Source: Flavilitoribacter nigricans DSM 23189 = NBRC 102662 (GTDB lineage: Bacteria > Bacteroidota > Bacteroidia > Chitinophagales > Saprospiraceae). Taken from it: a stretch of DNA of 64,000 nt. The stretch lies in the NCBI RefSeq assembly GCF_002646595.1, contig NZ_PDUD01000019.1:109128-173127 (forward strand), written 5' to 3'. This document shows, one piece after another, positions 9,858-26,571 of the stretch. Each line of letters begins with the position of its first letter. Positions within the stretch are counted from its first letter, which is position 1. The translations under genes were made by a program, and so were the position numbers. The notes beneath the pieces were generated by a model. The model saw only the letters and a list, made by a program, of their open reading frames with translations, made no database searches and was not told the DNA's origin.

Positions 9858-10706
9858 TTACCTGCCGGCGCGGATCATCCGATCCTTTCCGCCGAGATCC
9901 TGGCGCAATTCGATGCTTTTAAAACCAATGTCTTTAAGCAATTCCACGACCCGCTCTGCATTGTACTCATTCGTCTCGAAAAACAGGTACCCATCGGGTA
10001 GCAACTGCTGAAATGCCAGCAGACCGATCTCCCGGTAAAATACCAGTGGATCGTTTTCGGGCGCGAAGAGGGCCAGTTCCGGTTCGTGGGATAAGACGTG
10101 TTCCGGCATCAGATGCCGTTGGGAAGGTGGGATATAGGGTGGGTTGCTGATGATGTAATCAAAATTGCCCAGTTCGGGCCAACCGGCGGAATTCAGGATA
10201 TCCTGTTCGATCCAGGCGACTTCCACTTCGTTGCGGCGGGCGTTCGCGGCGGCCAGTTCGAGAATATCCGCGCGGACATCCAGTCCGCTTACCGTCAGGG
10301 CCGGGGCTTCGTGCTTGATCGTGATCGGGATACAGCCCGTTCCGGTGCCGATATCCAGTATTTTTTTTTCGGTGGGCTTGCCGGATTGTTTCCAGGTTTC
10401 GAGTACCCAGTGTACCAGTTCTTCCGTCTCCTGCCGCGGGATCAGTACGCGGGGATCTACCCCGAATTTTAGTCCGTAAAAATCCGCTTCGCCCAGAATA
10501 TACTGTACCGGTTCTCCGCGCAGCAGTCGCTGCTGAATGTGGCGGTAGAGCATTTCTTCTTCCGAACTGGCCTCGCGGTCCGGCTGATCCGCCCGGTACT
10601 CGAATACGTCTTCCAGCACAATGCGCGTAATACTGCCGGCTTCACCGGCCTCGTAGCGGCTTTGCAGATTTTCCTGCAGGCCTCTTTTTATTTCGAGCAG
10701 GGTCAA
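9858..10706 (-). CDS. prmC: peptide chain release factor N5-glutamine methyltransferase
   Basis: 'ISNPPY' (NPPY) motif plus SAM-binding 'ILDIGTGTGCI'. TTG start overlapping the upstream TGA stop (TTGA). Confidence 0.8.
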   Translation of the reverse strand: MTLLEIKRGLQENLQSRYEAGEAGSITRIVLEDVFEYRADQPDREASSEEEMLYRHIQQRLLRGEPVQYILGEADFYGLKFGVDPRVLIPRQETEELVHWVLETWKQSGKPTEKKILDIGTGTGCIPITIKHEAPALTVSGLDVRADILELAAANARRNEVEVAWIEQDILNSAGWPELGNFDYIISNPPYIPPSQRHLMPEHVLSHEPELALFAPENDPLVFYREIGLLAFQQLLPDGYLFFETNEYNAERVVELLKDIGFKSIELRQDLGGKDRMIRAGR

Positions 10707-11836
10707 GACAAACGGTTTTTAAAATCCTGGTGATCAAAGGTTTTTACGATCTCCAATTCACCGTCTTCCTGCAGGATGCAGATATTGGGATGTTTGACTC
10801 CATTGAATGTGGTTGTTTTCACCATCGTGTAGTGGATCATATCCTCGAAGACCATCCGGTCGCCAATCTCCAGCGGTTTTTCGAAGGAATAGGCCTCCAT
10901 GTAATCACCGGCCAGGCAACTCACGCCTCCGATACGATAAGTGGGTTTCCCATCAACCGGATCCGTTGCGCCGACGATGCGCGGGCGGTAGGGCATTTCG
11001 AGCGTATCGGGCATGTGTGCGGTAAAAGACACGTCGAGGATCGCGGTCTTTACTCCGTGGTTTTCGATAATGTCGAGGACCGTAGCTACCAGCACACCGG
11101 TTTCCCAGGCAATGGCGCTGCCGGGTTCCAGGATGACCTGCAGGGTATGCCGCTGCCGGAAATCCTGCAATAGTTTCACCAGATGATCCACATCGTAATC
11201 CTTGCGCGTCATCAGGTGGCCACCGCCGAAATTCACCCATTTCAACTGGGGGAAATATTTGGCAAACCGCTTCTCAAAAGCTTGCAGCGTTTTTTCCAGC
11301 GTATAGGATGAACTCTCACAAAGGGTGTGAAAATGCAGACCTTCAATTCCCTCCGGTAGCCGGTCGCCCAGATTGGGGGCTGTTTCTCCCAGACGGGAAA
11401 CCGGAGAAGCGGGATTGTACAAGTCCGTTTCCACTTCGGAATATTCCGGATTCACCCGCAGGCCCATGCTGATGGGTTCGGGATAGTTTTGCACCTGCTC
11501 ATGGTAGCGGTGGAACTGGTTCAAAGAATTAAAGGTGATATGACTGCTGTAGCGCATAATATCCGCAAAATCCTCCGGCAGATAGGCCGGGGAATAAGTA
11601 TAGGCCCGCACGCCCATTTCGTCGTAGATCAAACGGGCTTCATCCAGCGAACTGGCGGTTGCGCCACTCAGGTACTGGCCGACAATGGGGAATACCCGCC
11701 ACATGGAAAAGCCCTTTAGCGCCAGAATGATATCCACACCGGCCTGTTCCCGGACACTGCGGATCAGTTCCAGATTTTTGCGCAGGCGGGCCATTTCGAG
11801 TACAAAAGAGGGAGAAGGTATAGCTTGGTAATTCAA
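10703..11836 (-). CDS. nspC: carboxynorspermidine/carboxyspermidine decarboxylase (PLP fold-type III)
   Basis: N-terminal 'PSPSFVLEMARLRKNLELIRSVREQAGVDIILALKGFSMW' matches the NspC family pattern, and the length of 377 aa fits. Directly downstream of a saccharopine-dehydrogenase-family gene. Confidence 0.75.
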   Translation of the reverse strand: MNYQAIPSPSFVLEMARLRKNLELIRSVREQAGVDIILALKGFSMWRVFPIVGQYLSGATASSLDEARLIYDEMGVRAYTYSPAYLPEDFADIMRYSSHITFNSLNQFHRYHEQVQNYPEPISMGLRVNPEYSEVETDLYNPASPVSRLGETAPNLGDRLPEGIEGLHFHTLCESSSYTLEKTLQAFEKRFAKYFPQLKWVNFGGGHLMTRKDYDVDHLVKLLQDFRQRHTLQVILEPGSAIAWETGVLVATVLDIIENHGVKTAILDVSFTAHMPDTLEMPYRPRIVGATDPVDGKPTYRIGGVSCLAGDYMEAYSFEKPLEIGDRMVFEDMIHYTMVKTTTFNGVKHPNICILQEDGELEIVKTFDHQDFKNRLS

Positions 11837-11903
11837 GTGGTATGCTGGTTTAAAAGGTACCGCGAAGCGAGGGTTTTATCCGTCGCTTCGCGGAAAAGAG
11901 ATC

Positions 11904-13109
11904 TTAAAATTCCAGGTCTACCCCAACTTCTTCGTGCCAGGGCAATCCGTATTCATTCATTTTATCCAGGAAGGGATCCGGGTTGAATTCCTCTACATTG
12001 AATACGCCCGTACCGGACCATTCTCCGGTGAGGACCATCATCGCACCGATCATGGCCGGTACTCCCGTAGTATAGGAAACGCCCTGGGCGCCCGTTTCGT
12101 CGAAAGCGGCCTGGTGGCTGCAATTGTTCCAGATGTAATAGGTTTGTTCCTTACCGTTCTTGATCCCGCGGATGCGGCAACCAATAGACGTCTGGCCGGT
12201 ATAATTCTCCCCGAGTTCGCCGGGATCCGGCAGTACAGCCTTCAGGAATTCCAACGGAATGATATCCACGCCTTTGTATTTGACCGGATCGATCCGGGCC
12301 ATGCCGATATTCTGGATCACCCGCAGGTGCGTGAGGTATTCCTGACCGAAGGTCATCCAGAAACGGGCTCTTTTCAGACTGGGAAAGTTCTTCACGAGGG
12401 ATTCCAGTTCTTCGTGGTAAATGAGGTAAGAATCTTTCGGGCCGATGTCCGGATAGTTCAGCACTTTCATTTCCGAGTGCGGCGGGATCTCCACCCATTT
12501 GCCGTTTTCGTAGTAGCGACCGTTTTGGGTGATCTCCCGGATATTAATCTCCGGATTGAAGTTGGTGGCAAAAGCTTTACCGTGATCTCCGGCGTTGCAG
12601 TCCACGATATCCAGGTAATGCATCTCATCAAAGAAATGCTTCGCCGCCCGGGCGGTAAATACACTGGTAGCACCGGGATCAAAGCCACAGCCGAGTACGG
12701 CCATGATGCCTTTTTCCTTAAAGCGGTCCTGATAGGCCCACTGCCAGCTGTATTCGAATTTTGCTTCGTCTTTGGGTTCGTAGTTGGCCGTATCGAGGTA
12801 GTGCACCCCGGTTTCCAGGCAGGCTTCCATGATGGTAAGATCCTGGTAAGGCAAAGCTACGTGAATGACCAGTTTGGGGCCGAAAGAGCGGATCAATGCC
12901 GCCAGTTCGGGTACATTTTCCGCATCTACTGCGGCGGTGGTAATATGTTGATGACCGGTTGCGGCCTTGGCGTCGGCGGCAATTACATCGCACTTGGATT
13001 TGGTACGACTTGCCAGTAATATCTCCGAAAACACTTCGGGATGCTGGGCGCACTTGAAGGCGACTACCCGGCCGACACCGCCGGCACCTATGATCATAAC
13101 TTTTGACAT
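11904..13109 (-). CDS. saccharopine dehydrogenase family protein; in this context carboxynorspermidine/carboxyspermidine dehydrogenase
   Basis: N-terminal Rossmann motif 'MIIGAGGVGRVVA'. 401 aa. Forms an operon with nspC. Confidence 0.7.
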   Translation of the reverse strand: MSKVMIIGAGGVGRVVAFKCAQHPEVFSEILLASRTKSKCDVIAADAKAATGHQHITTAAVDAENVPELAALIRSFGPKLVIHVALPYQDLTIMEACLETGVHYLDTANYEPKDEAKFEYSWQWAYQDRFKEKGIMAVLGCGFDPGATSVFTARAAKHFFDEMHYLDIVDCNAGDHGKAFATNFNPEINIREITQNGRYYENGKWVEIPPHSEMKVLNYPDIGPKDSYLIYHEELESLVKNFPSLKRARFWMTFGQEYLTHLRVIQNIGMARIDPVKYKGVDIIPLEFLKAVLPDPGELGENYTGQTSIGCRIRGIKNGKEQTYYIWNNCSHQAAFDETGAQGVSYTTGVPAMIGAMMVLTGEWSGTGVFNVEEFNPDPFLDKMNEYGLPWHEEVGVDLEF

Positions 13110-15029: not shown

Positions 15030-15272
15030 ATGAGACTTCCAATCCAGGTTCAGCCTATCCTTCGGAATCATCTTAATTCCGTCAATCAAGACCGATTAAA
15101 CTTATCCAAGGCCAGACTCCGGCTGCAGGACTGTACCGGCGTACCCAATAATATCGTAGGCTCCTGCTTTGATAGCAACGGCCCGGTGCCGGGCCGGTTT
15201 AACTGTTCTGCATGCTGTGCACTCCGCGGCGCCATCTCTTGGCAGGGCGGTGGGTATGCAGTGGCTTGTTAA
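15030..15272 (+). CDS. small Cys-rich protein (80 aa) with an 'MRLPIQ' leader-like N-terminus; candidate precursor peptide
   Basis: ATG start. N-terminus M-x-L-P-x-Q-x-x-[PA]-[IV] shared with two other small ORFs (16997-17314, 17407-17580). C-terminal third holds 7 Cys (DCTG...GSCF...NCSACCALRGA...AVAC). Confidence 0.45.
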   Translation: MRLPIQVQPILRNHLNSVNQDRLNLSKARLRLQDCTGVPNNIVGSCFDSNGPVPGRFNCSACCALRGAISWQGGGYAVAC

Positions 15273-15366
15273 TTCATAGCCGCAATTATAGTCCTCACCA
15301 TCTTACAGCATGCGGATTAATTCTTTCATGAGCTAATACTAATCTTGAAGTTTATCGCTGCTGGAG

Positions 15367-16152
15367 ATGGTCAATACCGCAAAACATTTCGCGCATTATT
15401 TCTTCCTTAAACCAAAATCATTCAAAATTATGGCAAATTCAATTAATTGGGATTCCGGCCAACTGATCAATCTGAACGTCGGTGACACCGCTACTTGTAA
15501 AGGTGGATTAAACGTTGGCCAGGTCTACGGCTTGTTTTTTTACAACGCAGCAGGTAACGACGCCTCTACGACCGTCAATGTGGTTTGGTCAAATTCCAAC
15601 CCTCCTGTGATGGTCAATGTTCCCGGAACGACCATGAATCAGGGGCTAGCAGCCATTTGCTTTGTAGACGGCAGCCAAACCAATACCGTTTCAGCCTCGG
15701 TTACGCACGGTAATCAGGGAGCAAATGTCCAAGCCTTCATTTGTAGCGTAAAAATGCCAGTAAATACCAGCGGGATCCAGAACACCCAACTTCCTCTGGA
15801 TGGTAATCAGCATCCATTTCATAAGTTTACCCGATTTTATGCAGTACCGGCATCTCACTGGTATTCGGCTCAGATTCAAAGCGATGTTAACCAGTTTATC
15901 AGTGTCCAATTTACCGAATCGAAGGCCAACGTATATATCGTAAATAAAATAGTCGATCCGTCTAACGTAATCAAGTACGCCGGTGACGCCCAGGACTTAG
16001 TGACCGTAAAAACCTCCGACCATCAGTCTATCTCCTTTAATTTGCAAGGCAACGGCCGACAGTTCGTCTGGATGAATGCTGACAGTATTCAAAACAGTCA
16101 GGACGCCACAATTGCAGTGCAATCGCTAAGCAATTTGTTTGCGACTTTGTAA
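15367..16152 (+). CDS. hypothetical N/S/T/Q/V-rich protein, predicted beta-rich, no signal peptide
   Basis: ORF directly downstream of the 80-aa peptide ORF. Probable start MANSINW near 15430. No recognisable domain. Confidence 0.45.
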   Translation: MVNTAKHFAHYFFLKPKSFKIMANSINWDSGQLINLNVGDTATCKGGLNVGQVYGLFFYNAAGNDASTTVNVVWSNSNPPVMVNVPGTTMNQGLAAICFVDGSQTNTVSASVTHGNQGANVQAFICSVKMPVNTSGIQNTQLPLDGNQHPFHKFTRFYAVPASHWYSAQIQSDVNQFISVQFTESKANVYIVNKIVDPSNVIKYAGDAQDLVTVKTSDHQSISFNLQGNGRQFVWMNADSIQNSQDATIAVQSLSNLFATL

Positions 16153-16166
16153 GTAAACAGTGCTAA

Positions 16167-16194
16167 AAATGCCGGCTCTTGTAAGCCGGCATTT
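16167..16194. terminator. bidirectional rho-independent terminator between convergent genes
   Basis: Perfect 10-bp stem AAATGCCGGC/GCCGGCATTT with an 8-nt loop, followed by gcattttag. Confidence 0.6.
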
Positions 16195-16285
16195 GCATTT
16201 TAGAAAGTTTGGTTTTTCCTTTTCAATCCTGAATCTAAGTTCCAATATCTTTAGTTTGACCATTACCGTCTTAAAGTTCCACCTG

Positions 16286-16828
16286 CTATTTTTTATTATT
16301 CACCAGAGCAAATATCCAACTCCATAGTGGATTCCCCATCGGAAACCTTGCTCCGCTTCCCCAGCGATAGTTGACCGGTGGCCTCAACACCGGAAGTTTC
16401 ATTCCATCTTCCCGTGCCGCAACTGCTGGAACCACCATCAACAAAGTAAAATGGAAAATCCCTACTTTCCCACTTTGCTCCTGGTCTCCCTCCTCCCTTA
16501 CCCTCACTTCCTGTTCCAATATAAAGCGTCCTCCCGGCTGTGCAGGCACTCCGTGGAATAGTTCGTTATCTCCCTTATCGTTGGTTACCGGATCCTTTTC
16601 GATCACCGTTATTGTTATCTTTCGCCGGATTTCGTCCAGAGCCGGGTCGAAATCCCCTTCTGCGATCAGTTCAGGTGATTCAAATAATTTTTCTTCTCCG
16701 TTTCGGAGCAACATATCTTTTGTATAATCTGTCCGAAGGGCACGGATAGCGATAGACAGGTCTTTTCCCATATTATCTCCAGTGTATCGGATCGATTGCA
16801 GGTAAAGTTTAACCTTTGGAGTATTCAT
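16286..16828 (-). CDS. hypothetical protein (180 aa)
   Basis: ORF downstream, on the minus strand, of the Cys-rich peptide genes. No known motif. Confidence 0.4.
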   Translation of the reverse strand: MNTPKVKLYLQSIRYTGDNMGKDLSIAIRALRTDYTKDMLLRNGEEKLFESPELIAEGDFDPALDEIRRKITITVIEKDPVTNDKGDNELFHGVPAQPGGRFILEQEVRVREEGDQEQSGKVGIFHFTLLMVVPAVAAREDGMKLPVLRPPVNYRWGSGARFPMGNPLWSWIFALVNNKK

Positions 16829-16996
16829 AAACGGAAGCTTTTAAATGAGGAAATGAACAGAGGGCAGAAAGACATTCCTTCTGCCCCGGGTCTGTTGAAG
16901 ACTTATACACGACGTAGGGTGGAATTATCCTGATGGTATTTGACAGCTCAGGACCGAACCTGCTCCTACATCTGTATACATCTTCCCTATGCGGCC

Positions 16997-17314
16997 TTAG
17001 CCACAAAAACTTTTCAATACTGCAGGTATTGGAATACCGATCTTTTCTGCGCCGGATACCGCCGTACAGATCACGGTTTTGGCTCCTCCTTCAATACAAT
17101 CTTCACAGTCGGATACGAAACTGGCAAAAGCTGGTAAACAGAGCGGAAGATCTTCCGGAAAACCCAGGGGGTCACAGGGGCCAACAACCAGAAGACCAAA
17201 TTTGCCGGCACATTTCAATCCTTCGCCCAAACTGCAGCTGGTCTTTAGGTGACGTCGAAGCAAGGGTAGATCACGAGATTTTAGCACCGCGTGGTGTTGA
17301 TTGGGAAGTTTCAT
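16997..17314 (-). CDS. small Cys-rich protein (105 aa) with an 'MKLPNQ' leader-like N-terminus; candidate precursor peptide
   Basis: ATG start. Nine Cys. Start context ATAATTA-ATG-AAA-CTT-CC is nearly identical to that of the 57-aa ORF. An 8-bp hairpin (16862-16886) lies downstream. Confidence 0.45.
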   Translation of the reverse strand: MKLPNQHHAVLKSRDLPLLRRHLKTSCSLGEGLKCAGKFGLLVVGPCDPLGFPEDLPLCLPAFASFVSDCEDCIEGGAKTVICTAVSGAEKIGIPIPAVLKSFCG

Positions 17315-17356
17315 AATTATTGGATTTTATGATGAGCAGAACTAGATAAATGACAA

Positions 17357-17384
17357 TGAGGCAAGAGGAGCACCTCTTGCCTCA
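17357..17384. terminator. strong hairpin between the two tandem small Cys-rich ORFs; candidate attenuator or terminator
   Basis: Perfect 12-bp stem TGAGGCAAGAGG/CCTCTTGCCTCA with a 4-nt loop AGCA. Flanked by moderately T-rich sequence on both strands. Confidence 0.55.
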
Positions 17385-17406
17385 TACCAAATTTTAAACT
17401 GAAGTG

Positions 17407-17580
17407 CTAGCAGACGGTTGCATTGCAGGCCGCAATACAAAGCGTTTTTGCTATACCGGTCAGCATGCTGCAGCCCGCCATACAAATATCACAAGGGATA
17501 GATGACAACTGCATTCCGTTGGAGCGGTAATTCACTTTGCTGGCCTTCTGTACAGGCACAGCTTGCTTTGGAAGATTCAT
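17407..17580 (-). CDS. unannotated small Cys-rich ORF (57 aa, MNLPKQAVPVQKASKVNYRSNGMQLSSIPCDICMAGCSMLTGIAKTLCIAACNATVC); candidate precursor peptide
   Basis: Translated by hand from the minus strand. ATG at 17580, TAG at 17407-17409. It is below the 60-aa cutoff of the supplied track. It lies 37 nt downstream of the S8 protease stop. Confidence 0.45.
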   Translation of the reverse strand: MNLPKQAVPVQKASKVNYRSNGMQLSSIPCDICMAGCSMLTGIAKTLCIAACNATVC

Positions 17581-17616
17581 AATTATGAAATTTTAAAGGT
17601 GAAAAAATGAATGGAA

Positions 17617-19659
17617 TTAGTGGATATACCAGGAGCGCACGCTACCGATAGTAACCGGCACGACATCACTGACATCGACAGTATAGCGGTACACTTTTCT
17701 GGCCTTTTCGTAGCGTTGCAGGGGATCAAAGAAGATCAGTTGTACATCGTATCCATCGACGCCGGGACGTACGATCGGACTCTTCGTTACTTTGATATCA
17801 GTGAGTTGGAGTGAATCTGCAGCTGCTGCCTGGAAAACACTATTGGCAGTGAAAGCATTAGTAGCCGCATAGTTGAGCGCCCGTTCCTGTGGAGTAAGTC
17901 CGAAGTTGCGGAATTCGTAGTAAACACGTTCCAGGAAATTAGCCAGTGCTTCAATGGTAGAGGTATCGCCCACTGCTTCTGCCAGGGCTTGGGTGGACCA
18001 TTCGGCCATTCCCCGCAGAGAAGGTACGATAGCCGGAACTACCTGCCCGTTGAGCAAAGTCACTTTACCCGCAATTATACCCGGCACAGCAACTCTTTCC
18101 ACACCGTTCTCCTCTAATTGTCCTTTCAATGAATCGACCAGTCGCTCGTAGGTAAGGTGGGCGTATGCTCCCAGGGGATGAATGGCGTAAATGGGCGTTC
18201 CCTCCTGTTCCAACGTCCAGATAAGCTCCGTAGCTTCGTACATATTGCCTGATTCCAGGTGATCAATTACCACCTGAGGATCGTTCAGGTTATCATTGAT
18301 ATGTTGTAGGAATGAGTCGCGCCGGGATTCATTGACAAAGTCATAGCCAATGGTACCCAGAGCGTATACTTTCTGGTGAGTGGCACCGGCATTTCCTTTC
18401 TTTCCACCACAGCTACATCCTCCACTTTCTTTTTTCCCACCGCAACCACATCCGCAGGAGGGCTCGATCTCAGAGGGAGAAATACGGGGCAAATCGGTGG
18501 TAACAGTGATATCTGATATGGCCTGGCTCAAGGATTCGTTAGTTTTGGCTTCGGAAAAGTTTTCCATTGGTTGTAATTCTAATGATTCTGAAAGTTGAAC
18601 CTGCACGGAAGCACCTTCATTCCGTACATCCTGGTCCAGTTCGGATAGTTTTTTATGGACATTTTCCATGGTAGAAGAATTTTTTATGTTAATTAATGGA
18701 GAATTGGTATCGATTGGAGTGGCCAGCTGTGCTGCCCCTGAGGTGAAGTCTTCCATCCGTTCTGCCGGTCTCACCTTCGCCGGAAGGATCAACTCCTGTA
18801 AAGCTGCTTGAACATTGAGCGTGCCTCGCAAAAAGCGACTGCACTCTTCGATATTTCGATCCGGACAGGGATTTGCCGTCTGAAGCAAAATATTCTTTAT
18901 GCGATGGGGATCAGGTTGTTCGCCTCTTTTTATTAGCAGACTGAGTAATAAGGCCACCACCCCGGAAACGTAGGGAGTAGCAAAGCTGGTACCGGATTTT
19001 GGTCCGTACCGACCGTTGGTCAAGGCCCCGTTAATATTTCTGCCCGGAGCGAGCAGTCCGTTGGTGAGATAGGCATCGCCCCAGTTGCTGTCAGGAAGAG
19101 GTATACCGGAAATATCCATTGCTCCTACCGTTAATACGGTAGGTACAGCAGCTGGGACATGTAGGCAACGACATCCGTTATTTCCAGCGGCCGCAACGAC
19201 CAGTATATTTTCTTTATCACACTGCTCTAAAGCACGCGCCAATACCTCATCCGGTTCACCAAAATCATCCAGTTCCCCGGCGCTGATATTGATTACGTGT
19301 ACTTTATGTTGAATCGCTTTGTTAATTGCCCTGGCCAGATCGAGTTGAGTAGCCAACTGTACTTTCTTATCAGACGTCATCTCAAATAGCGGAATGATAA
19401 TTCCGGTCACTTGGGGCGCAATCCCTTTGACCAGCGAATGATGCTGGCCAAAAATGATACTGCTGACGTGGGTTCCGTGATCGGAAGGTTCGCAGCTGGC
19501 CTCATCATCCCCGTATATGCTAACCTGGGACAATTGAGCTCCAGCCAGCGCCGGATGATCCAACTCCGCCGGACCGTCGATAATAGCTATGCGAATATCA
19601 GGTTCACCCAGGGTCAGTGCCCACAGGCGACCAATATCCTCGTGGACTTGATCGTACAT
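17617..19659 (-). CDS. subtilisin-like (S8) serine protease with a ~300-aa C-terminal domain resembling the PatA/PatG-family C-terminal DUF
   Basis: Catalytic triad motifs 'IAIIDG' (Asp), 'DHGTHVS' (His), 'GTSFATPYVSG' (Ser). No signal peptide. Gly/Cys-rich linker 'SCGCGCGGKKESGGCSCGGKKGNAG'. The C-terminal domain carries 'VYALGTIGYDFVNESRRDSF', recalled to be characteristic of cyanobactin protease C-terminal domains. Confidence 0.75.
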   Translation of the reverse strand: MYDQVHEDIGRLWALTLGEPDIRIAIIDGPAELDHPALAGAQLSQVSIYGDDEASCEPSDHGTHVSSIIFGQHHSLVKGIAPQVTGIIIPLFEMTSDKKVQLATQLDLARAINKAIQHKVHVINISAGELDDFGEPDEVLARALEQCDKENILVVAAAGNNGCRCLHVPAAVPTVLTVGAMDISGIPLPDSNWGDAYLTNGLLAPGRNINGALTNGRYGPKSGTSFATPYVSGVVALLLSLLIKRGEQPDPHRIKNILLQTANPCPDRNIEECSRFLRGTLNVQAALQELILPAKVRPAERMEDFTSGAAQLATPIDTNSPLINIKNSSTMENVHKKLSELDQDVRNEGASVQVQLSESLELQPMENFSEAKTNESLSQAISDITVTTDLPRISPSEIEPSCGCGCGGKKESGGCSCGGKKGNAGATHQKVYALGTIGYDFVNESRRDSFLQHINDNLNDPQVVIDHLESGNMYEATELIWTLEQEGTPIYAIHPLGAYAHLTYERLVDSLKGQLEENGVERVAVPGIIAGKVTLLNGQVVPAIVPSLRGMAEWSTQALAEAVGDTSTIEALANFLERVYYEFRNFGLTPQERALNYAATNAFTANSVFQAAAADSLQLTDIKVTKSPIVRPGVDGYDVQLIFFDPLQRYEKARKVYRYTVDVSDVVPVTIGSVRSWYIH

Positions 19660-19765: not shown

Positions 19766-20476
19766 TTACCATTTTGGAGCGAGATTCGGATTACCCTTAC
19801 CATAAATACTAGAGAATCTGGACGGCGCACAACCGAATTCCTTTTTAAAACTTCGGCAGAAACTGGTTTGATTGCTATATCCTACCTCGTCCGAAACTGC
19901 TCCCACCGAAGCTACATTGCTGAGTAATAGTTTTGCCGCGTATTGTAAACGAATAACACGGATAAGGTTTCCGGTTGAACAATTTATGATTATCCGTGTC
20001 CGCCGGTTGAGTTGTGAATTACTTAAACCAATACGATGAGCCAGAAAGGAAACATCCAGCTGAGGAGCGCTGATATACCGGAAAATCAACCGCACCAGCT
20101 TTCGAACAAAAATCTCCTCTTGAGTATCCAATGAAATAGTTAATTCAAGCCAATTGAAAGCTAAAGTCATTAAATTATCAACCCCGCATTCCCGATTATT
20201 TAAACTGCGATACCAAGCCGACTCAATATTATTCACCAAATTTCCAGATCCGGTTTCGGATAGCTCTTGGTCTTTAATGTAGATCGTTCTCCTTAGATCT
20301 TTTCGACCGTATAGCCAGCCCCTCCCACGGGGTTCTGCTTGCTGCTGAAATTTATTTTTTTCGAAAAATGCATACCGTTGGATATCCTCCCAGGACGCAA
20401 CATTATGGCGTTCCAAATTTGACTTTATCATAATTTTCAGGCTTGGATGTTTGTAAGTTACCGCTGTCCAGGGCAA
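19766..20476 (-). CDS. AraC-type HTH domain transcriptional regulator
   Basis: C-terminal dual HTH region (IGLSNSQLNRRTR ... GYSNQTSFCRSFKKEFGCAPSRF). Confidence 0.65.
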   Translation of the reverse strand: MPWTAVTYKHPSLKIMIKSNLERHNVASWEDIQRYAFFEKNKFQQQAEPRGRGWLYGRKDLRRTIYIKDQELSETGSGNLVNNIESAWYRSLNNRECGVDNLMTLAFNWLELTISLDTQEEIFVRKLVRLIFRYISAPQLDVSFLAHRIGLSNSQLNRRTRIIINCSTGNLIRVIRLQYAAKLLLSNVASVGAVSDEVGYSNQTSFCRSFKKEFGCAPSRFSSIYGKGNPNLAPKW

Positions 20477-23441: not shown

Positions 23442-25010
23442 ATGAAAAGAACAAAACTTCTTTACTTATTCTTTTTTTTACTGATCGCTTTTTTAACTCC
23501 GGCCTGCGATAATACGGCCGACACCGAAGAGGAATCTACCGAACAGGCGGCCACCTCGCCCAACATCATCTTCATTTACGCCGATGATCTCGGTTACGGT
23601 GATGTCAGTGCCTACGAAGTGGGCCAGCTGTCCACGCCGAATATTGACCGGCTGGCCAACGGTGGAGTGAAGTTCACCAATGGTTACGCCTCCTCGGCGA
23701 CCTGTTCGCCCAGCCGCTACGCGCTGCTTACCGGCAGCTATCCGTGGCGTAACCCCCGGGCCAAAATCCTGCCCGGTACCGCTCCCCTATTAATCGATAC
23801 GGCCCAGATGACCGTCCCAAAAATGCTCCGCGCTCAGGGATACCATACCGGCGTTGTCGGCAAATGGCACCTCGGACTGGGTGACGGCAATACCGACTGG
23901 AACCAACACATCGCGCCCGGCCCCAATGAGGTTGGTTTCGACTACAGCTACATCATGGCCGCTACCCAGGACCGGGTGCCGACCGTTTATATAGAGGACG
24001 GCGACGTGGTCCGGCTGGACCCGAACGATCCCATCGAAGTGGACTATCGGCAGAATTTCCCGGGAGAACCCACCGGCAAGGACAATCCGGAAATGTTGAA
24101 AATGAAGTGGCACCACGGCCACAACAGCAGCATCGTGAACGGTATTCCCCGGATCGGGTTCATGAAGGGTGGCGATGCCGCCAAATGGGTGGACGAAAAT
24201 ATGGCCGACACCTTCCTGGTACGGGCCCAGGACTATATACGGATGCATAAAGAGGAGCCTTTCTTCCTGTACTACGCCCTGCAGCAACCGCACGTACCGC
24301 GCACACCGCATCCGCGCTTTGTCGGCAAATCCGGCATGGGCCCCAGAGGGGACGTGATCGTGGAGGCCGACTGGTGCATCGGCGAATTGCTGAAAACGCT
24401 GGAAGCGGAAGGTTTAATGGAGAATACCCTCATCGTGTTGTCCAGTGATAACGGTCCGGTGCTTAACGATGGTTATTACGATGATGCTGTGGAAAAGCTC
24501 GGAGACCACACGCCGTGGGGGCCACTGCGGGGAGGAAAGTACAGCCTGTTCGAAGCCGGCACCCGCGTACCCTTTATCTCCTACTGGCAGGGGCACATCG
24601 AACCGACGGTATCCGACGCGGTCATCTCGCAGATCGACCTTTTTGCTTCCCTGGCCGAACTGGTCGGAAGCGATGCCCGTACGGATGACAGTGAGGAAAT
24701 GCTGGATGTGCTAATGGGGGAAAGTCAGGATGGCCGCGATGAACTCATTCTGGAAGCGACCACCCGCACCGCCCTTCGCAAAGGAGACTGGATCCTGATC
24801 CCTCCTTACCAGGGACCGGCCGTCAATAAATCGGTTAATATCGAACTGGGGAATGCGGAGGACTTTCAGTTGTACAATCTGAAAGATGATCTCGGCCAGC
24901 AAAAAAATCTGGCGGAAGCCCAGCCGGAAAAGTTACAGGAAATGATCGCCGCTTTTCAGGCCATTCGCGGTACGGAATTCCAGGAAGTAGAACAACTGGA
25001 ACTGAAATAA
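23442..25010 (+). CDS. sulfatase (arylsulfatase family, Cys-type)
   Basis: Formylglycine motif 'CSPSRYALLTG', 'IFIYADDLGYGD' metal-binding N-terminus, lipoprotein-type signal peptide. Confidence 0.9.
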   Translation: MKRTKLLYLFFFLLIAFLTPACDNTADTEEESTEQAATSPNIIFIYADDLGYGDVSAYEVGQLSTPNIDRLANGGVKFTNGYASSATCSPSRYALLTGSYPWRNPRAKILPGTAPLLIDTAQMTVPKMLRAQGYHTGVVGKWHLGLGDGNTDWNQHIAPGPNEVGFDYSYIMAATQDRVPTVYIEDGDVVRLDPNDPIEVDYRQNFPGEPTGKDNPEMLKMKWHHGHNSSIVNGIPRIGFMKGGDAAKWVDENMADTFLVRAQDYIRMHKEEPFFLYYALQQPHVPRTPHPRFVGKSGMGPRGDVIVEADWCIGELLKTLEAEGLMENTLIVLSSDNGPVLNDGYYDDAVEKLGDHTPWGPLRGGKYSLFEAGTRVPFISYWQGHIEPTVSDAVISQIDLFASLAELVGSDARTDDSEEMLDVLMGESQDGRDELILEATTRTALRKGDWILIPPYQGPAVNKSVNIELGNAEDFQLYNLKDDLGQQKNLAEAQPEKLQEMIAAFQAIRGTEFQEVEQLELK

Positions 25011-25038
25011 CCGGCAACCGGTTTCGCTCACGGAGATT

Positions 25039-25079
25039 GGGAATGCAGGATTTACGTTGGAAAAGTCTCTGCATTCCCG
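25039..25079. repeat. hairpin plus repeat element downstream of the sulfatase stop; likely terminator
   Basis: 10-bp perfect stem GGGAATGCAG/CTGCATTCCC with a 20-nt loop. The 3' arm is part of the 14-mer TCTCTGCATTCCCG, which also occurs at 3696-3709. Confidence 0.5.
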
Positions 25080-25176
25080 ACCTTCCTGCTTCGGGTATCC
25101 ACGTATCATTCATGGCCGTGCCTGTCCTTTCACCTTATTTTAAGAGGGCCCCGCTCACCAGATCCAAATCCAGTCT

Positions 25177-26571
25177 ATGAAACTATTACATGTTCTCCTT
25201 CCAGTACTCCTGTTGTCCCTGATCGCCTGTAAAAGCTCCCGGGATCAGGCCACTACCCAGCGCCCGCCCAATATCATCTACATTATGTCCGATGATCAGG
25301 GATACGCCGATCTCGGCTGCTACGACAGTAAATTCGTACAAACGCCCAACCTGGACCGCATGGCCGCCGAAGGCATGCGTTTTACCCAGGTATACGCCGG
25401 CAGTCCGGTCTGTGCACCTACCCGCTGCGCGCTGATGACCGGCAAACACGACGGCCACCTCACCCGCCGGGACAATCGTACCACCGATGATGCCGATAAA
25501 CCCTTCATGCAACGGAAACTCGTCCCGCTGAAAGCCGAGGATTATACCATCGGCGAAATGATGCAGGATGCCGGTTACGCTACCGGAGCGATCGGCAAAT
25601 GGGGACTCGGTAATCCCGGCACCACCGGTACGCCCACGCTGCAGGGCTTCGACTATTTTTACGGCTATATCGATCAGGTACACGCTCATAATTACTATAC
25701 GGACTACCTGATGCGCAATACCGATACCGTGCCTATTCCGGAAAATCGCAACAACCAGCGCCAGGTGTACACCCACGATCTGATGGCCGCGGATGCTCTG
25801 GATTTTGTCCGCCAGCACCGGGAAGAACCCTTCTTCCTGTACCTCCCGTATACCACGCCGCACGGCCGCTACGAGGTGCCGGACAATTCTCAGTACGCCG
25901 GTCAGCCCTGGCCGGAGCAGGTAAAGAACTACGCGGCTATGATCACGCGCATGGATAAGGACATCGGGGAATTGTTCACCCTTCTGAAAGAACTGGGCCT
26001 GGATGAAAATACCATCGTTTTTTTTACTTCCGATCACGGTCCCAATCCTCCCTTCATCGAACCCCTGGAAAGCAACAAACCTTTCCGCGGCGTAAAACGC
26101 CAACTGCTGGAGGGTGGCCTGCGGGTACCGATGATCGTCCGCTGGCCGGGTAAGATCCGGGCGGGCACCGTCAGCGATTTTCCCTGGGCTTTCTGGGATG
26201 TGATGCCCACCATGGCCGAACTGGCCGCCACCCAAACACCGGAAAACATCGACGGTATATCCGTACTGCCTACCCTGCTGGGACAGCAACAGCAACCCCA
26301 CGATTATTTTTATTGGGAGTTTTACAGTCCCTTTCAGCAGGCCGTGCGGGTGGACCACTGGAAAGGAATCCGGCTGGGTACGGAAGAACCGATCCACCTG
26401 TTTGATCTGAACAAGGATCCCGAAGAACTAAATGACCTGGCGGGACAACATCCGGACATCGTACAGAAAATGGAAAATATCATGGCCGAAGCGCACACGC
26501 CCAGCCCGTACTGGCCCACCGTGGCGACAGCCGGAGAAGAAGCGAAAAAAATACTGTCGGCGAAGGAGTGA
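25177..26571 (+). CDS. sulfatase (Cys-type)
   Basis: 'CAPTRCALMTG' formylglycine motif, 'IIYIMSDDQGYAD', lipoprotein-type signal peptide. Confidence 0.9.
   Translation: MKLLHVLLPVLLLSLIACKSSRDQATTQRPPNIIYIMSDDQGYADLGCYDSKFVQTPNLDRMAAEGMRFTQVYAGSPVCAPTRCALMTGKHDGHLTRRDNRTTDDADKPFMQRKLVPLKAEDYTIGEMMQDAGYATGAIGKWGLGNPGTTGTPTLQGFDYFYGYIDQVHAHNYYTDYLMRNTDTVPIPENRNNQRQVYTHDLMAADALDFVRQHREEPFFLYLPYTTPHGRYEVPDNSQYAGQPWPEQVKNYAAMITRMDKDIGELFTLLKELGLDENTIVFFTSDHGPNPPFIEPLESNKPFRGVKRQLLEGGLRVPMIVRWPGKIRAGTVSDFPWAFWDVMPTMAELAATQTPENIDGISVLPTLLGQQQQPHDYFYWEFYSPFQQAVRVDHWKGIRLGTEEPIHLFDLNKDPEELNDLAGQHPDIVQKMENIMAEAHTPSPYWPTVATAGEEAKKILSAKE

What the first reader, a model, noticed from the sequence alone, without database searches (positions are those of the whole stretch)
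15030..17580. Shared leader motif and near-identical start contexts among the three small ORFs
N-termini align as MRLPIQVQPILRNHL, MNLPKQAVPVQKASK and MKLPNQHHAVLKSRD. At DNA level, the two minus-strand copies share ATAATT(A)-ATG-AA(T/A)-CTT-CC around the start, and the plus-strand copy has ATG-AGA-CTT-CCA. This points to gene duplication of a leader-core precursor family with diversifying Cys-rich cores. Such diversification is the hallmark of RiPP or bacteriocin precursor arrays.
Basis: seen in the sequence. Interest (0 to 1): 0.6.

Follow-up and report, generated by a model that had tools for sequence, protein, structure and literature searches.

The report
Cyanobactin-type leaders on cysteine-rich peptides
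Three small genes beside a cyanobactin-type (PatA-like) leader-cutting protease in a Bacteroidota genome are real precursor peptides of a widespread, so far unnamed family whose shared start is the protease's recognition tag and whose cysteine-rich ends are three unrelated peptides.

Summary
M-x-L-P-x-Q occurs exactly three times in the six-frame translation of the 64-kb window. All three are at the starts of ORFs A (15030-15272 +), B (16997-17314 -) and C (17407-17580 -). C and B lie directly downstream of a PatA-type cyanobactin protease (17617-19659 -).

All three genes have orthologs under purifying selection. Relatives found through their cores alone carry the same N-terminal box (LPxQxxPVxR). 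About 20 residues later they carry a PatA-like cleavage box, G(V/I)x(A/P)S. The same box heads genuine cyanobactin precursors.

The window has no macrocyclase, heterocyclase, prenyltransferase or PatB, and the peptides have no C-terminal recognition sequence. Most likely mechanism: the protease removes a 26-residue leader after Ser26 in each peptide. This would release cores of 54, 79 and 31 residues with 6, 8 and 6 cysteines, which then form disulfides.

"Duplication with diversifying cores" does not. The cores are unrelated families, and each is conserved; two of them occur in other phyla.

The peptides are annotated only as hypothetical proteins or not at all. I found no paper describing them. 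Biological function is unknown.

The parts
19766..20476 (-). AraC-family transcriptional regulator directly upstream of the protease on the same strand; putative regulator of the module
   Evidence: Pfam HTH_18/HTH_AraC. An AraC-type gene is adjacent to the protease in 9 of 83 related loci, including the Bacteroidota ones (L001, L002, L020, L023, L067).
17617..19659 (-). PatA-type S8 serine protease with C-terminal cyanobactin DUF (PatG_D + PatG_C); no signal peptide; predicted leader peptidase
   Evidence: TIGR03895 at 627 bits (cutoff 421); Pfam Peptidase_S8, PatG_D, PatG_C. PDB matches: PagA 4h6w 302 bits and PatA 4h6v 281 bits over residues 9-290. PatG/PagG macrocyclase domains reach only about 151 bits, and only from residue 56. 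The residues I take as the catalytic triad by subtilase homology (D28, H61, S225) are invariant in the alignment. 100% identical to a Flavilitoribacter nigricans protein.
18397..18435 (-). Substrate-like motif SEIEPS|CGCGCGG in the linker between the protease domain and the DUF (approximate coordinates)
   Evidence: 79 of 108 homologs have [IVL]x[PA][SA] followed within 0-2 residues by CxC in the 50 residues before the DUF. There are no such matches in 67,915 other residues.
17407..17580 (-). Precursor C, 57 aa. Leader residues 1-26 (17503-17580) with N-box MNLPKQAVPVQK and cleavage box M23-Q-L-S26. Core of 31 aa with 6 Cys (17410-17502): SIPCDICMAGCSMLTGIAKTLCIAACNATVC
   Evidence: Leader HMM E 6.5e-5. 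Orthologs in L001 and L002. At least 82 homologous clusters, all 'hypothetical protein' with no Pfam domain. dN/dS 0.145. AF2 predicts a helical hairpin, helices 28-37 and 43-55, with core pLDDT 83-89.
17356..17385 (-). 13-bp stem-loop directly after precursor C (terminator/attenuator-like)
16997..17314 (-). Precursor B, 105 aa. Divergent leader residues 1-26 (17237-17314), MKLPNQHHAVLK ... L23-K-T-S26. Core of 79 aa with 8 Cys (17000-17236)
   Evidence: Orthologs in L001 (79% identity) and L002 (63%) in the same position after C. Core homologs P0207, P0209, P0212 and P0213 have canonical leaders. dN 0.137 with saturated dS. AF2 predicts an all-helical fold at low confidence, pLDDT 63.
16861..16887 (-). 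12-bp stem-loop directly after precursor B (terminator-like)
15030..15272 (+). Precursor A, 80 aa. Leader residues 1-26 (15030-15107), MRLPIQVQPILR ... L23-N-L-S26. Core with 6 Cys (15108-15269). An alternative cleavage after Q33, next to DCTG, is possible
   Evidence: Leader HMM E 1e-3. Ortholog in L001 with LTPS at residues 23-26 and its last 35 residues identical. Core homologs in L037 and L078. dN/dS 0.147.
16286..16828 (-). 180-aa conserved hypothetical protein downstream of B; membership of the module uncertain
   Evidence: No Pfam or NCBIfam hit. Ortholog only in L001, absent from L002.
15367..16152 (+). 261-aa protein of unknown function downstream of A; variable slot, membership doubtful
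   Evidence: No family hit. No homolog in any of the 83 loci. L001 has two different genes in this position.

Best explanation
ORFs A, B and C are ribosomally made precursor peptides that share a cyanobactin-type leader. They are most likely matured by the adjacent cytoplasmic PatA-type subtilisin-like protease, with no other dedicated tailoring enzyme.

Each precursor has an N-terminal recognition box, M-x-L-P-x-Q-x-x-(P/A)-(V/I)-x-(K/R). At a fixed distance it has a cleavage box, (L/M)23-x-x-S26. This is the local version of the PatA site G(L/V)E(A/P)S.

The protease is predicted to cut after Ser26. That would release three unrelated cores of 54, 79 and 31 residues with 6, 8 and 6 cysteines. 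These would oxidise to 3, 4 and 3 disulfides. The C core would be a disulfide-stapled helical hairpin.

Shown here: the genes are real and conserved. They belong to a large family tied by position to PatA-type proteases. The protease is PatA-like, not macrocyclase-like. The rest of the cyanobactin machinery is absent from the window.

Inferred: that this protease cuts these peptides, the exact cleavage site, disulfide formation, and export. The biological role is a guess; a released bacteriocin-like or signalling peptide seems most likely.
For: Position: 89 box-bearing small ORFs lie downstream of the protease on the same strand in related loci, against 0 upstream on the same strand. 63 of 83 loci have at least one.

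Independent validation: relatives retrieved through the C, A or B core carry the same leader box.

Link to cyanobactins: genuine cyanobactin precursors in the same set (L066, L072, L074, L044) share the box. hhalign of C-type leaders against true cyanobactin leaders gives P 4.8e-5. Relatives give sub-threshold hits to TIGR03678 and TIGR04446.

Protease type: PatA/PagA-like, with the residues expected to form the catalytic triad conserved.

Cleavage box: V/I-x-A/P-S in 46 of 57 relatives where a box was found. The distance from P4 to the box is 23-25 residues in 44 of 60. It is 23 in all three window peptides, putting the box Ser at position 26. The PatA consensus G(L/V)E(A/P)S is from PMC10885120.

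Cys parity: 51 of 59 peptides with 4 or more Cys have an even count, and four of the eight exceptions have one Cys in the leader.

Real genes: dN/dS about 0.15 and hairpins after C and B.

No other tailoring genes.
Against: There are no experimental data. The window's cleavage boxes (MQLS, LKTS, LNLS) deviate from the canonical G(V/I)x(A/P)S. B's leader is not significant against the leader HMM on its own.

The protease has no signal peptide, and no exporter or thiol oxidase is encoded nearby. It is therefore unclear where the disulfides would form and how the peptides would leave the cell.

The leader HMM was trained on ORFs picked by a regular expression inspired by these peptides, which makes that test partly circular. 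The core-based retrievals offset this.

In the A-type relative from L037 the box abuts DCTG, so A could instead be cut after Q33. The Cys-parity counts include related sequences and are not independent.
Confidence: 0.75

Rival explanations
1. One reading: a local array made by tandem duplication of one leader-core gene, with the cores diversifying rapidly afterwards.
For: The three genes share a start motif and start context and lie within 2.6 kb.
Against: The cores have no detectable similarity to each other. Each core has its own conserved relatives; A-type and C-type relatives occur in other phyla. Orthologous cores are under purifying selection and are more conserved than the leaders.
Confidence: 0.08
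2. These are canonical cyanobactins. The cores are excised and head-to-tail cyclised (possibly also heterocyclised or prenylated) by enzymes encoded elsewhere in the genome.
For: There is a PatA/PatG-family protease and a cyanobactin-type leader box.
Against: The peptides end at or next to the last Cys, with no AYDG/FAGDDAE-type follower. The protease is PatA-like, not macrocyclase-like. The 64-kb window holds no second paralog and no YcaO, PatF or PatB homolog. Cores of 31-79 residues are far longer than known cyanobactins, which have 6-20 residues (PMC4663559).
Confidence: 0.03
3. The cysteines are substrates for another modification (thioether, thiazoline, or metal-cluster/metallophore chemistry), or the peptides act inside the cell as metal- or redox-binding peptides rather than as disulfide-bonded released peptides.
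For: The protease is cytoplasmic and no exporter is encoded nearby. The protease linker itself is Cys-rich.
Against: The strongly even Cys counts across the family fit pairing. Only the protease is conserved across the 83 loci. The predicted helical hairpin places the CxxC/CxxxC motifs of the two helices opposite each other (geometry inferred, not measured).
Confidence: 0.12
4. The ORFs are chance reading frames and the motif is a coincidence.
For: Pairwise similarity is short. The exact A and B sequences are absent from the protein collection.
Against: Searches show conservation, purifying selection, family membership and motif statistics.
Confidence: 0.01

Closest known systems
Cyanobactin biosynthesis (pat/tru/ten/acy/pag pathways): PatE-type precursors cut by the PatA N-terminal protease
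   Same: The protease has the same architecture, S8 domain plus PatG_D/PatG_C DUF. The precursors carry the same N-terminal leader box; PatE's is NILPQQGQPVIR (PMC5108345; hhalign). The protease site is of the same type, G(L/V)E(A/P)S (PMC10885120).
   Different: There is no PatG macrocyclase, no C-terminal recognition sequence, no LAELSEEAL heterocyclase-binding element, and no PatB/C/D/F. The leader is short (26 aa). The cores are long (31-79 aa) and rich in Cys. The host is Bacteroidota, whereas a 2015 review states that cyanobactin clusters were known only from cyanobacteria (PMC4663559).
Linear cyanobactins (aeruginosamide/viridisamide type)
   Same: The products are not macrocyclised, and PatA-type processing removes the leader.
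   Different: Per the reviews and my own knowledge, those are very short, heavily tailored (prenylated, methylated, thiazole-containing) peptides from clusters with heterocyclase and prenyltransferase. No tailoring enzyme is present here.
Class II (unmodified, disulfide-containing) bacteriocins with cleaved leaders
   Same: They work alike in outline: a ribosomal peptide, leader removal by a dedicated protease, disulfide-stabilised cores, and several unrelated cores sharing one leader type.
   Different: There is no double-glycine leader. No C39-peptidase ABC transporter or immunity gene was identified among the ORFs I scanned in the window. The protease is a soluble S8 enzyme with cyanobactin DUF domains.
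Alpha-hairpinins / vicilin-buried peptides (CxxxC...CxxxC helical hairpins)
   Same: The predicted fold of the C core is a two-helix hairpin with facing Cys motifs. The top Foldseek hit is a vicilin leader hairpin, 7uv1.
   Different: The match is not significant (E 5.7). It is a plant family with no evolutionary link, so this is an analogy only.

Membership tests
PatA/PatG family cyanobactin maturation protease (TIGR03895), for the enzyme | Full-length match above the curated cutoff; S8 domain plus PatG_D and PatG_C | tested here: met
   627 bits against a cutoff of 421. All three Pfam domains are above their gathering scores.
PatA subtype (N-terminal protease) versus PatG subtype (macrocyclase) | A protease domain collinear with PatA/PagA, lacking the macrocyclase-specific insertion between the catalytic Asp and His | tested here: met
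   PagA and PatA align over residues 9-290 at 302 and 281 bits. PatG and PagG align only from residue 56 at about 151 bits. D28 and H61 are 33 residues apart. The location of the macrocyclase insertion is from my own knowledge of the PatG structure papers.
Cyanobactin gene cluster | A second, PatG-type C-terminal protease/macrocyclase | tested here: not met
   The 64-kb window holds no paralog. The rest of the genome could not be searched.
Cyanobactin gene cluster | PatB/PatC homologs, and a heterocyclase (PatD) and/or prenyltransferase (PatF) | tested here: not met
   tblastn with PatB-like, YcaO and PatF-like queries finds nothing in the window. Pfam on the neighbouring genes shows only housekeeping genes and sulfatases.
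Cyanobactin precursor (PatE-type) | Conserved N-terminal leader box (..LPxQxxPVxR..) | tested here: met
   A and C are significant against the leader HMM. The C-type family against true cyanobactin leaders gives P 4.8e-5. B qualifies only through its homologs. None reaches the NCBIfam cutoffs for TIGR03678 or TIGR04446.
Cyanobactin precursor (PatE-type) | N-terminal protease site G(L/V)E(A/P)S directly before the core | tested here: inconclusive
   Relatives have V/I-x-A/P-S. The window peptides have MQLS, LKTS and LNLS ending at S26. Cleavage itself was not tested.
Cyanobactin precursor (PatE-type) | C-terminal recognition sequence (AYDG / FAGDDAE type) for macrocyclisation | tested here: not met
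   A ends ...YAVAC, B ends ...KSFCG and C ends ...NATVC.
Cyanobactin precursor (PatE-type) | Heterocyclase recognition element LAELSEEAL | tested here: not met
   It is absent from A, B and C and present in the true precursors of L066, L072 and L074.
Double-glycine-leader bacteriocins | A GG/GA leader end and a C39 peptidase-ABC transporter | tested here: not met
   There is no GG at the leader end. No C39 peptidase or ABC transporter domain was found among the ORFs scanned.
Lanthipeptides / sactipeptides / thiopeptides (other Cys-using RiPPs) | A LanB/C/M/KC, radical-SAM or YcaO enzyme in the cluster | tested here: not met
   None was found among the ORFs scanned between 8 and 28 kb.

The most novel reading that the evidence does not exclude
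A PatA-type protease plus a roughly 26-residue cyanobactin-type leader forms a self-sufficient maturation module that has spread horizontally. It has been coupled to many unrelated disulfide-rich mini-protein cores, and in cyanobacteria also to Cys-free amphipathic peptides. It occurs in Bacteroidota, Proteobacteria, Acidobacteriota, Planctomycetota, Cyanobacteria and other phyla. This would be an undescribed peptide class that is larger than the classical cyanobactins, which would be one elaborated branch of it. In this reading the universally conserved N-box is the docking element for the so far functionless DUF domains, and the protease is controlled by the substrate-like IxPS|CxC site in its own linker.
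Probability: 0.35. Interest if true: 0.75.

Novelty: new variant of a known kind. Interest (0 to 1): 0.6.

Why it matters
It would extend cyanobactin-type machinery well beyond cyanobacteria and beyond small macrocycles. The result would be a simple two-part system, a leader and a protease, that matures long disulfide-rich peptides.

That gives a defined, testable set of natural substrates for two open questions. One is what the invariant N-terminal box of cyanobactin leaders does. The other is what the conserved DUF domains of PatA/PatG do. PatG-DUF did not bind PatE in vitro (PMC4259220).

It also points to hundreds of unannotated or 'hypothetical' peptide genes. These include compact helical-hairpin scaffolds that could be bioactive or useful for peptide engineering.

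Tried and rejected
- **Genome scan with the protease alone:** the single-protein scan of genome contigs found nothing. The alignment-based scan worked.
- **Word-indexed homolog search with ORF C alone:** it found only 3 proteins. The family alignment was needed.
- **Family databases:** Pfam and NCBIfam gave no hit for A, B, C or the 180-, 261- and 238-aa neighbours.
- **Fold searches:** neither the C nor the B model gave a significant PDB match. The B model has low confidence, pLDDT 63.
- **Rfam:** nothing in 13-21.5 kb.
- **A possible fourth precursor:** the internal MKLPVLRPPV in the 180-aa ORF is not supported by the leader HMM.
- **Literature:** nine full-text searches, including literal peptide strings, found no description of PatA-only Cys-rich precursors outside cyanobacteria. 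The library lacks most subscription papers, so prior description cannot be excluded.
- **DUF-docking idea:** I considered whether the DUF domain docks the N-box. The only published test (PatG-DUF against PatE) was negative, so I keep this idea only within the novel reading.
Full report
**What is in the sequence**

The region holds three small ORFs.
- A, 15030-15272 (+), 80 aa, 6 Cys.
- B, 16997-17314 (-), 105 aa, 8 Cys.
- C, 17407-17580 (-), 57 aa, 6 Cys.

Pairwise BLASTP among them is not significant (E 0.025-34). Taken pairwise, the shared part is only M-x-L-P-x-Q plus a Ser at position 26.

The pattern is nevertheless far from chance. M.LP.Q occurs three times in the entire six-frame translation of the 64-kb window. 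All three are at these N-termini, against 0.3 expected in shuffles.

Immediately upstream of C and B, on the same strand, lies a 680-aa protein (17617-19659).
- It matches TIGR03895, the PatA/PatG family cyanobactin maturation protease, at 627 bits against a cutoff of 421.
- It has Pfam Peptidase_S8, PatG_D and PatG_C domains.
- It is 100% identical to a protein of Flavilitoribacter nigricans (Bacteroidota, Lewinellaceae).
- Its protease domain aligns end to end with the N-terminal proteases PagA (4h6w, 302 bits) and PatA (4h6v, 281 bits).
- The PatG/PagG macrocyclase domains match at only about 151 bits, and only from residue 56. So it is PatA-type.

An AraC-family regulator sits upstream. 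The window holds no second paralog and no homolog of PatB, the YcaO heterocyclase or the PatF prenyltransferase. The flanking genes are housekeeping genes and sulfatases.

**The ORFs are real genes**

A metagenomic contig whose protease is 77% identical (L001) has orthologs of A, B and C in the same arrangement. A 60%-identical one (L002) has C and B directly after the protease. A 57%-identical one (L003) has a single different Cys-rich peptide there.

Against L001, dN/dS is 0.147 for A and 0.145 for C, at dS of about 1.05-1.10. For B, dN is 0.137 with saturated dS. The last 35 residues of A are identical, while its leader varies. Strong stem-loops follow C (17385-17356) and B (16887-16861).

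C is annotated only as 'hypothetical protein' (WP_170110358.1). The exact A and B sequences are not in the 15-billion-protein collection.

**The family**

An alignment-based scan of one genome per species returned 80 loci with this protease type. They come from Cyanobacteria, Alpha-, Beta- and Gammaproteobacteria, Acidobacteriota, Planctomycetota, Bacteroidota, Clostridia, Actinomycetota and candidate phyla.

In 63 of 83 loci, small ORFs begin with M-(K/R/N)-(L/I/M/F)-P-x-Q-x-x-P-V-x-R. Of these, 89 lie downstream of the protease on the same strand and none lies upstream on the same strand. About 20 residues after the box, most carry V/I-x-A/P-S (46 of 57 where a box was found). The distance from the box Pro to that Ser is 23-25 residues in 44 of 60 cases.

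In the window, all three peptides have (L/M)23-x-x-S26, a distance of 23 residues. Reviews give the PatA site as G(L/V)E(A/P)S (PMC10885120).

**Link to cyanobactin precursors**

Genuine cyanobactin precursors in the same set carry the same N-terminal box. These are the patellamide-like ones in L066, L072 and L074, and the anacyclamide-like ones in L044 and L046. The PatE leader peptide NILPQQGQPVIR is quoted in PMC5108345.

Profile-profile comparison of C-type leaders with true cyanobactin leaders aligns kLPnQsxPVxR with P 4.8e-5. Relatives give sub-threshold hits to TIGR03678 and TIGR04446.

**Tests of membership for each window peptide**

A leader HMM built only from loci L004-L083 ranks C first (E 6.5e-5) and A second (E 1e-3) among 1762 six-frame segments of the window. 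B is not significant.

Because that HMM was trained on ORFs selected by a regular expression, I looked for evidence that does not depend on the leader.
- **C-type:** homologs retrieved by a family profile number at least 82 clusters. All conserve the six Cys and carry the box plus G-V-x-(A/P)-S.
- **A-type:** core homologs occur in L037 (Thermoanaerobaculaceae) and L078 (Undibacterium), with their own leaders.
- **B-type:** an exhaustive phmmer search of 1.84 billion representatives found only 8 relatives. Several match only from residue 23-31 onward, yet start MRLPNQSQPVVR, MRVPIQSPPVSR or MRLPTQARPVLR. They score E 3e-9 to 4e-3 against the leader HMM.

B is therefore a genuine member with a diverged leader.

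**What the cores look like**

The three cores are unrelated to each other.
- **C:** AlphaFold2 with 73 sequences predicts a disordered leader and a two-helix hairpin, helices 28-37 and 43-55, with core pLDDT 83-89. The CxxCxxxC motif would face CxxxCxxxxC.
- **B:** the model is all-helical but of low confidence, pLDDT 63.
- Neither model has a significant PDB neighbour.

Across the family, 51 of 59 peptides with 4 or more Cys have an even number. Four of the eight exceptions have one Cys in the leader. This favours full disulfide pairing. These counts include related sequences, so they are not independent.

**Mechanism proposed**

The AraC-type regulator controls an operon of protease, C and B. 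A is transcribed separately on the other strand.

The cytoplasmic PatA-type protease recognises the N-box and cuts after S26. It releases cores of 54 (A), 79 (B) and 31 (C) residues, which become disulfide-bonded. Only the protease is conserved across all loci, so no further dedicated tailoring is expected.

What is inferred rather than shown:
- that this protease cleaves these peptides;
- the exact site (for A, Q33 next to DCTG is an alternative, because the L037 homolog has its box there);
- disulfide formation;
- export, since no exporter, thiol oxidase or immunity gene is evident nearby.

Function is unknown. By analogy with leader-cleaved, disulfide-stabilised bacteriocins I favour a released antimicrobial or signalling peptide, with low confidence.

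**Comparison with what is known**

It works like the first proteolytic step of cyanobactin biosynthesis, and the enzyme is a member of the PatA/PatG family. It is not a cyanobactin cluster by the usual definition (PMC4663559). There is no macrocyclase, no C-terminal recognition sequence, no PatB/C, and no heterocyclase or prenyltransferase. The cores are 31-79 residues rather than 6-20, and the host is not a cyanobacterium.

'Duplication with diversifying cores' is not supported.

Nine full-text searches, including literal peptide strings, found no description of these precursors. The library is incomplete, so I rate this a new variant of a known kind rather than categorically new.

Noticed in passing
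window ~18397-18435 (-), protease residues ~409-421: The protease's own interdomain linker reads SEIEPS|CGCGCGG, which looks like its substrate site followed by Cys. In 79 of 108 family members, [IVL]x[PA][SA] followed by CxC sits in the 50 residues before the DUF. It never occurs elsewhere in 67,915 residues. It may be an autoprocessing or pseudo-substrate site. No paper mentioning this was found.
   Followed up: partly
L079 7785-8018; also L049, L051, L055, L057, L063, L080, L082: PatB/AcyB/McaB-family proteins (TIGR04220, E 1.9e-36), whose function is unknown, begin with the same MKLPKQSPPVKRP box as the precursors. They may themselves be protease substrates, or derived from precursors.
   Followed up: partly
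window 16286-16828 (-), residues 142-155: The 180-aa hypothetical protein has an internal GMKLPVLRPPVNYR. Its L001 ortholog has GMKLPELRAPVVKG at the point where conservation between the two ends. It resembles the leader box, but the leader HMM score is not significant. RefSeq has two start choices for this gene, 180 and 161 aa.
   Followed up: partly
window 17581-17616 (-) and the equivalent spacers in L001, L002, L003, L028: The roughly 36-nt spacer between the protease stop codon and the first precursor ATG (TTTTTTCACCTtTAAAATTTCATAATT-ATG) is conserved among Bacteroidota loci whose proteins are only 57-77% identical. It may be a translation-initiation or internal promoter element.
   Followed up: no
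L014, L015, L018, L019, L022, L047, L060 (cyanobacteria): The same leader and GVEAS box precede Cys-free amphipathic cores of about 25 residues (for example AWYDTLLDVAKKVAPIAANVVGSL). There are several copies per locus, often with a TIGR00027-type SAM methyltransferase nearby. They look like linear antimicrobial-peptide-like products of the same protease system.
   Followed up: no
P0211 (415 aa, metagenomic): The B-type core also occurs, without a leader, as the C-terminal domain (residues 351-413) of a larger protein. So it is an autonomous Cys-rich domain.
   Followed up: no
window 15367-16152 (+) versus L001 7200-8493: The slot between the 180-aa gene and precursor A holds a 261-aa protein with no homolog in any locus. 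The close relative L001 instead has two different genes there, one with a faint PixA (inclusion-body protein) hit. The cargo at this position is variable.
   Followed up: no
window 9858-13109 (-): The left flank holds a saccharopine-dehydrogenase-like gene, a PLP-decarboxylase-like gene and a PrmC-like methyltransferase. Two sulfatases lie on the right at 23442-26571. These are ordinary housekeeping or degradative genes and are not part of the module.
   Followed up: no
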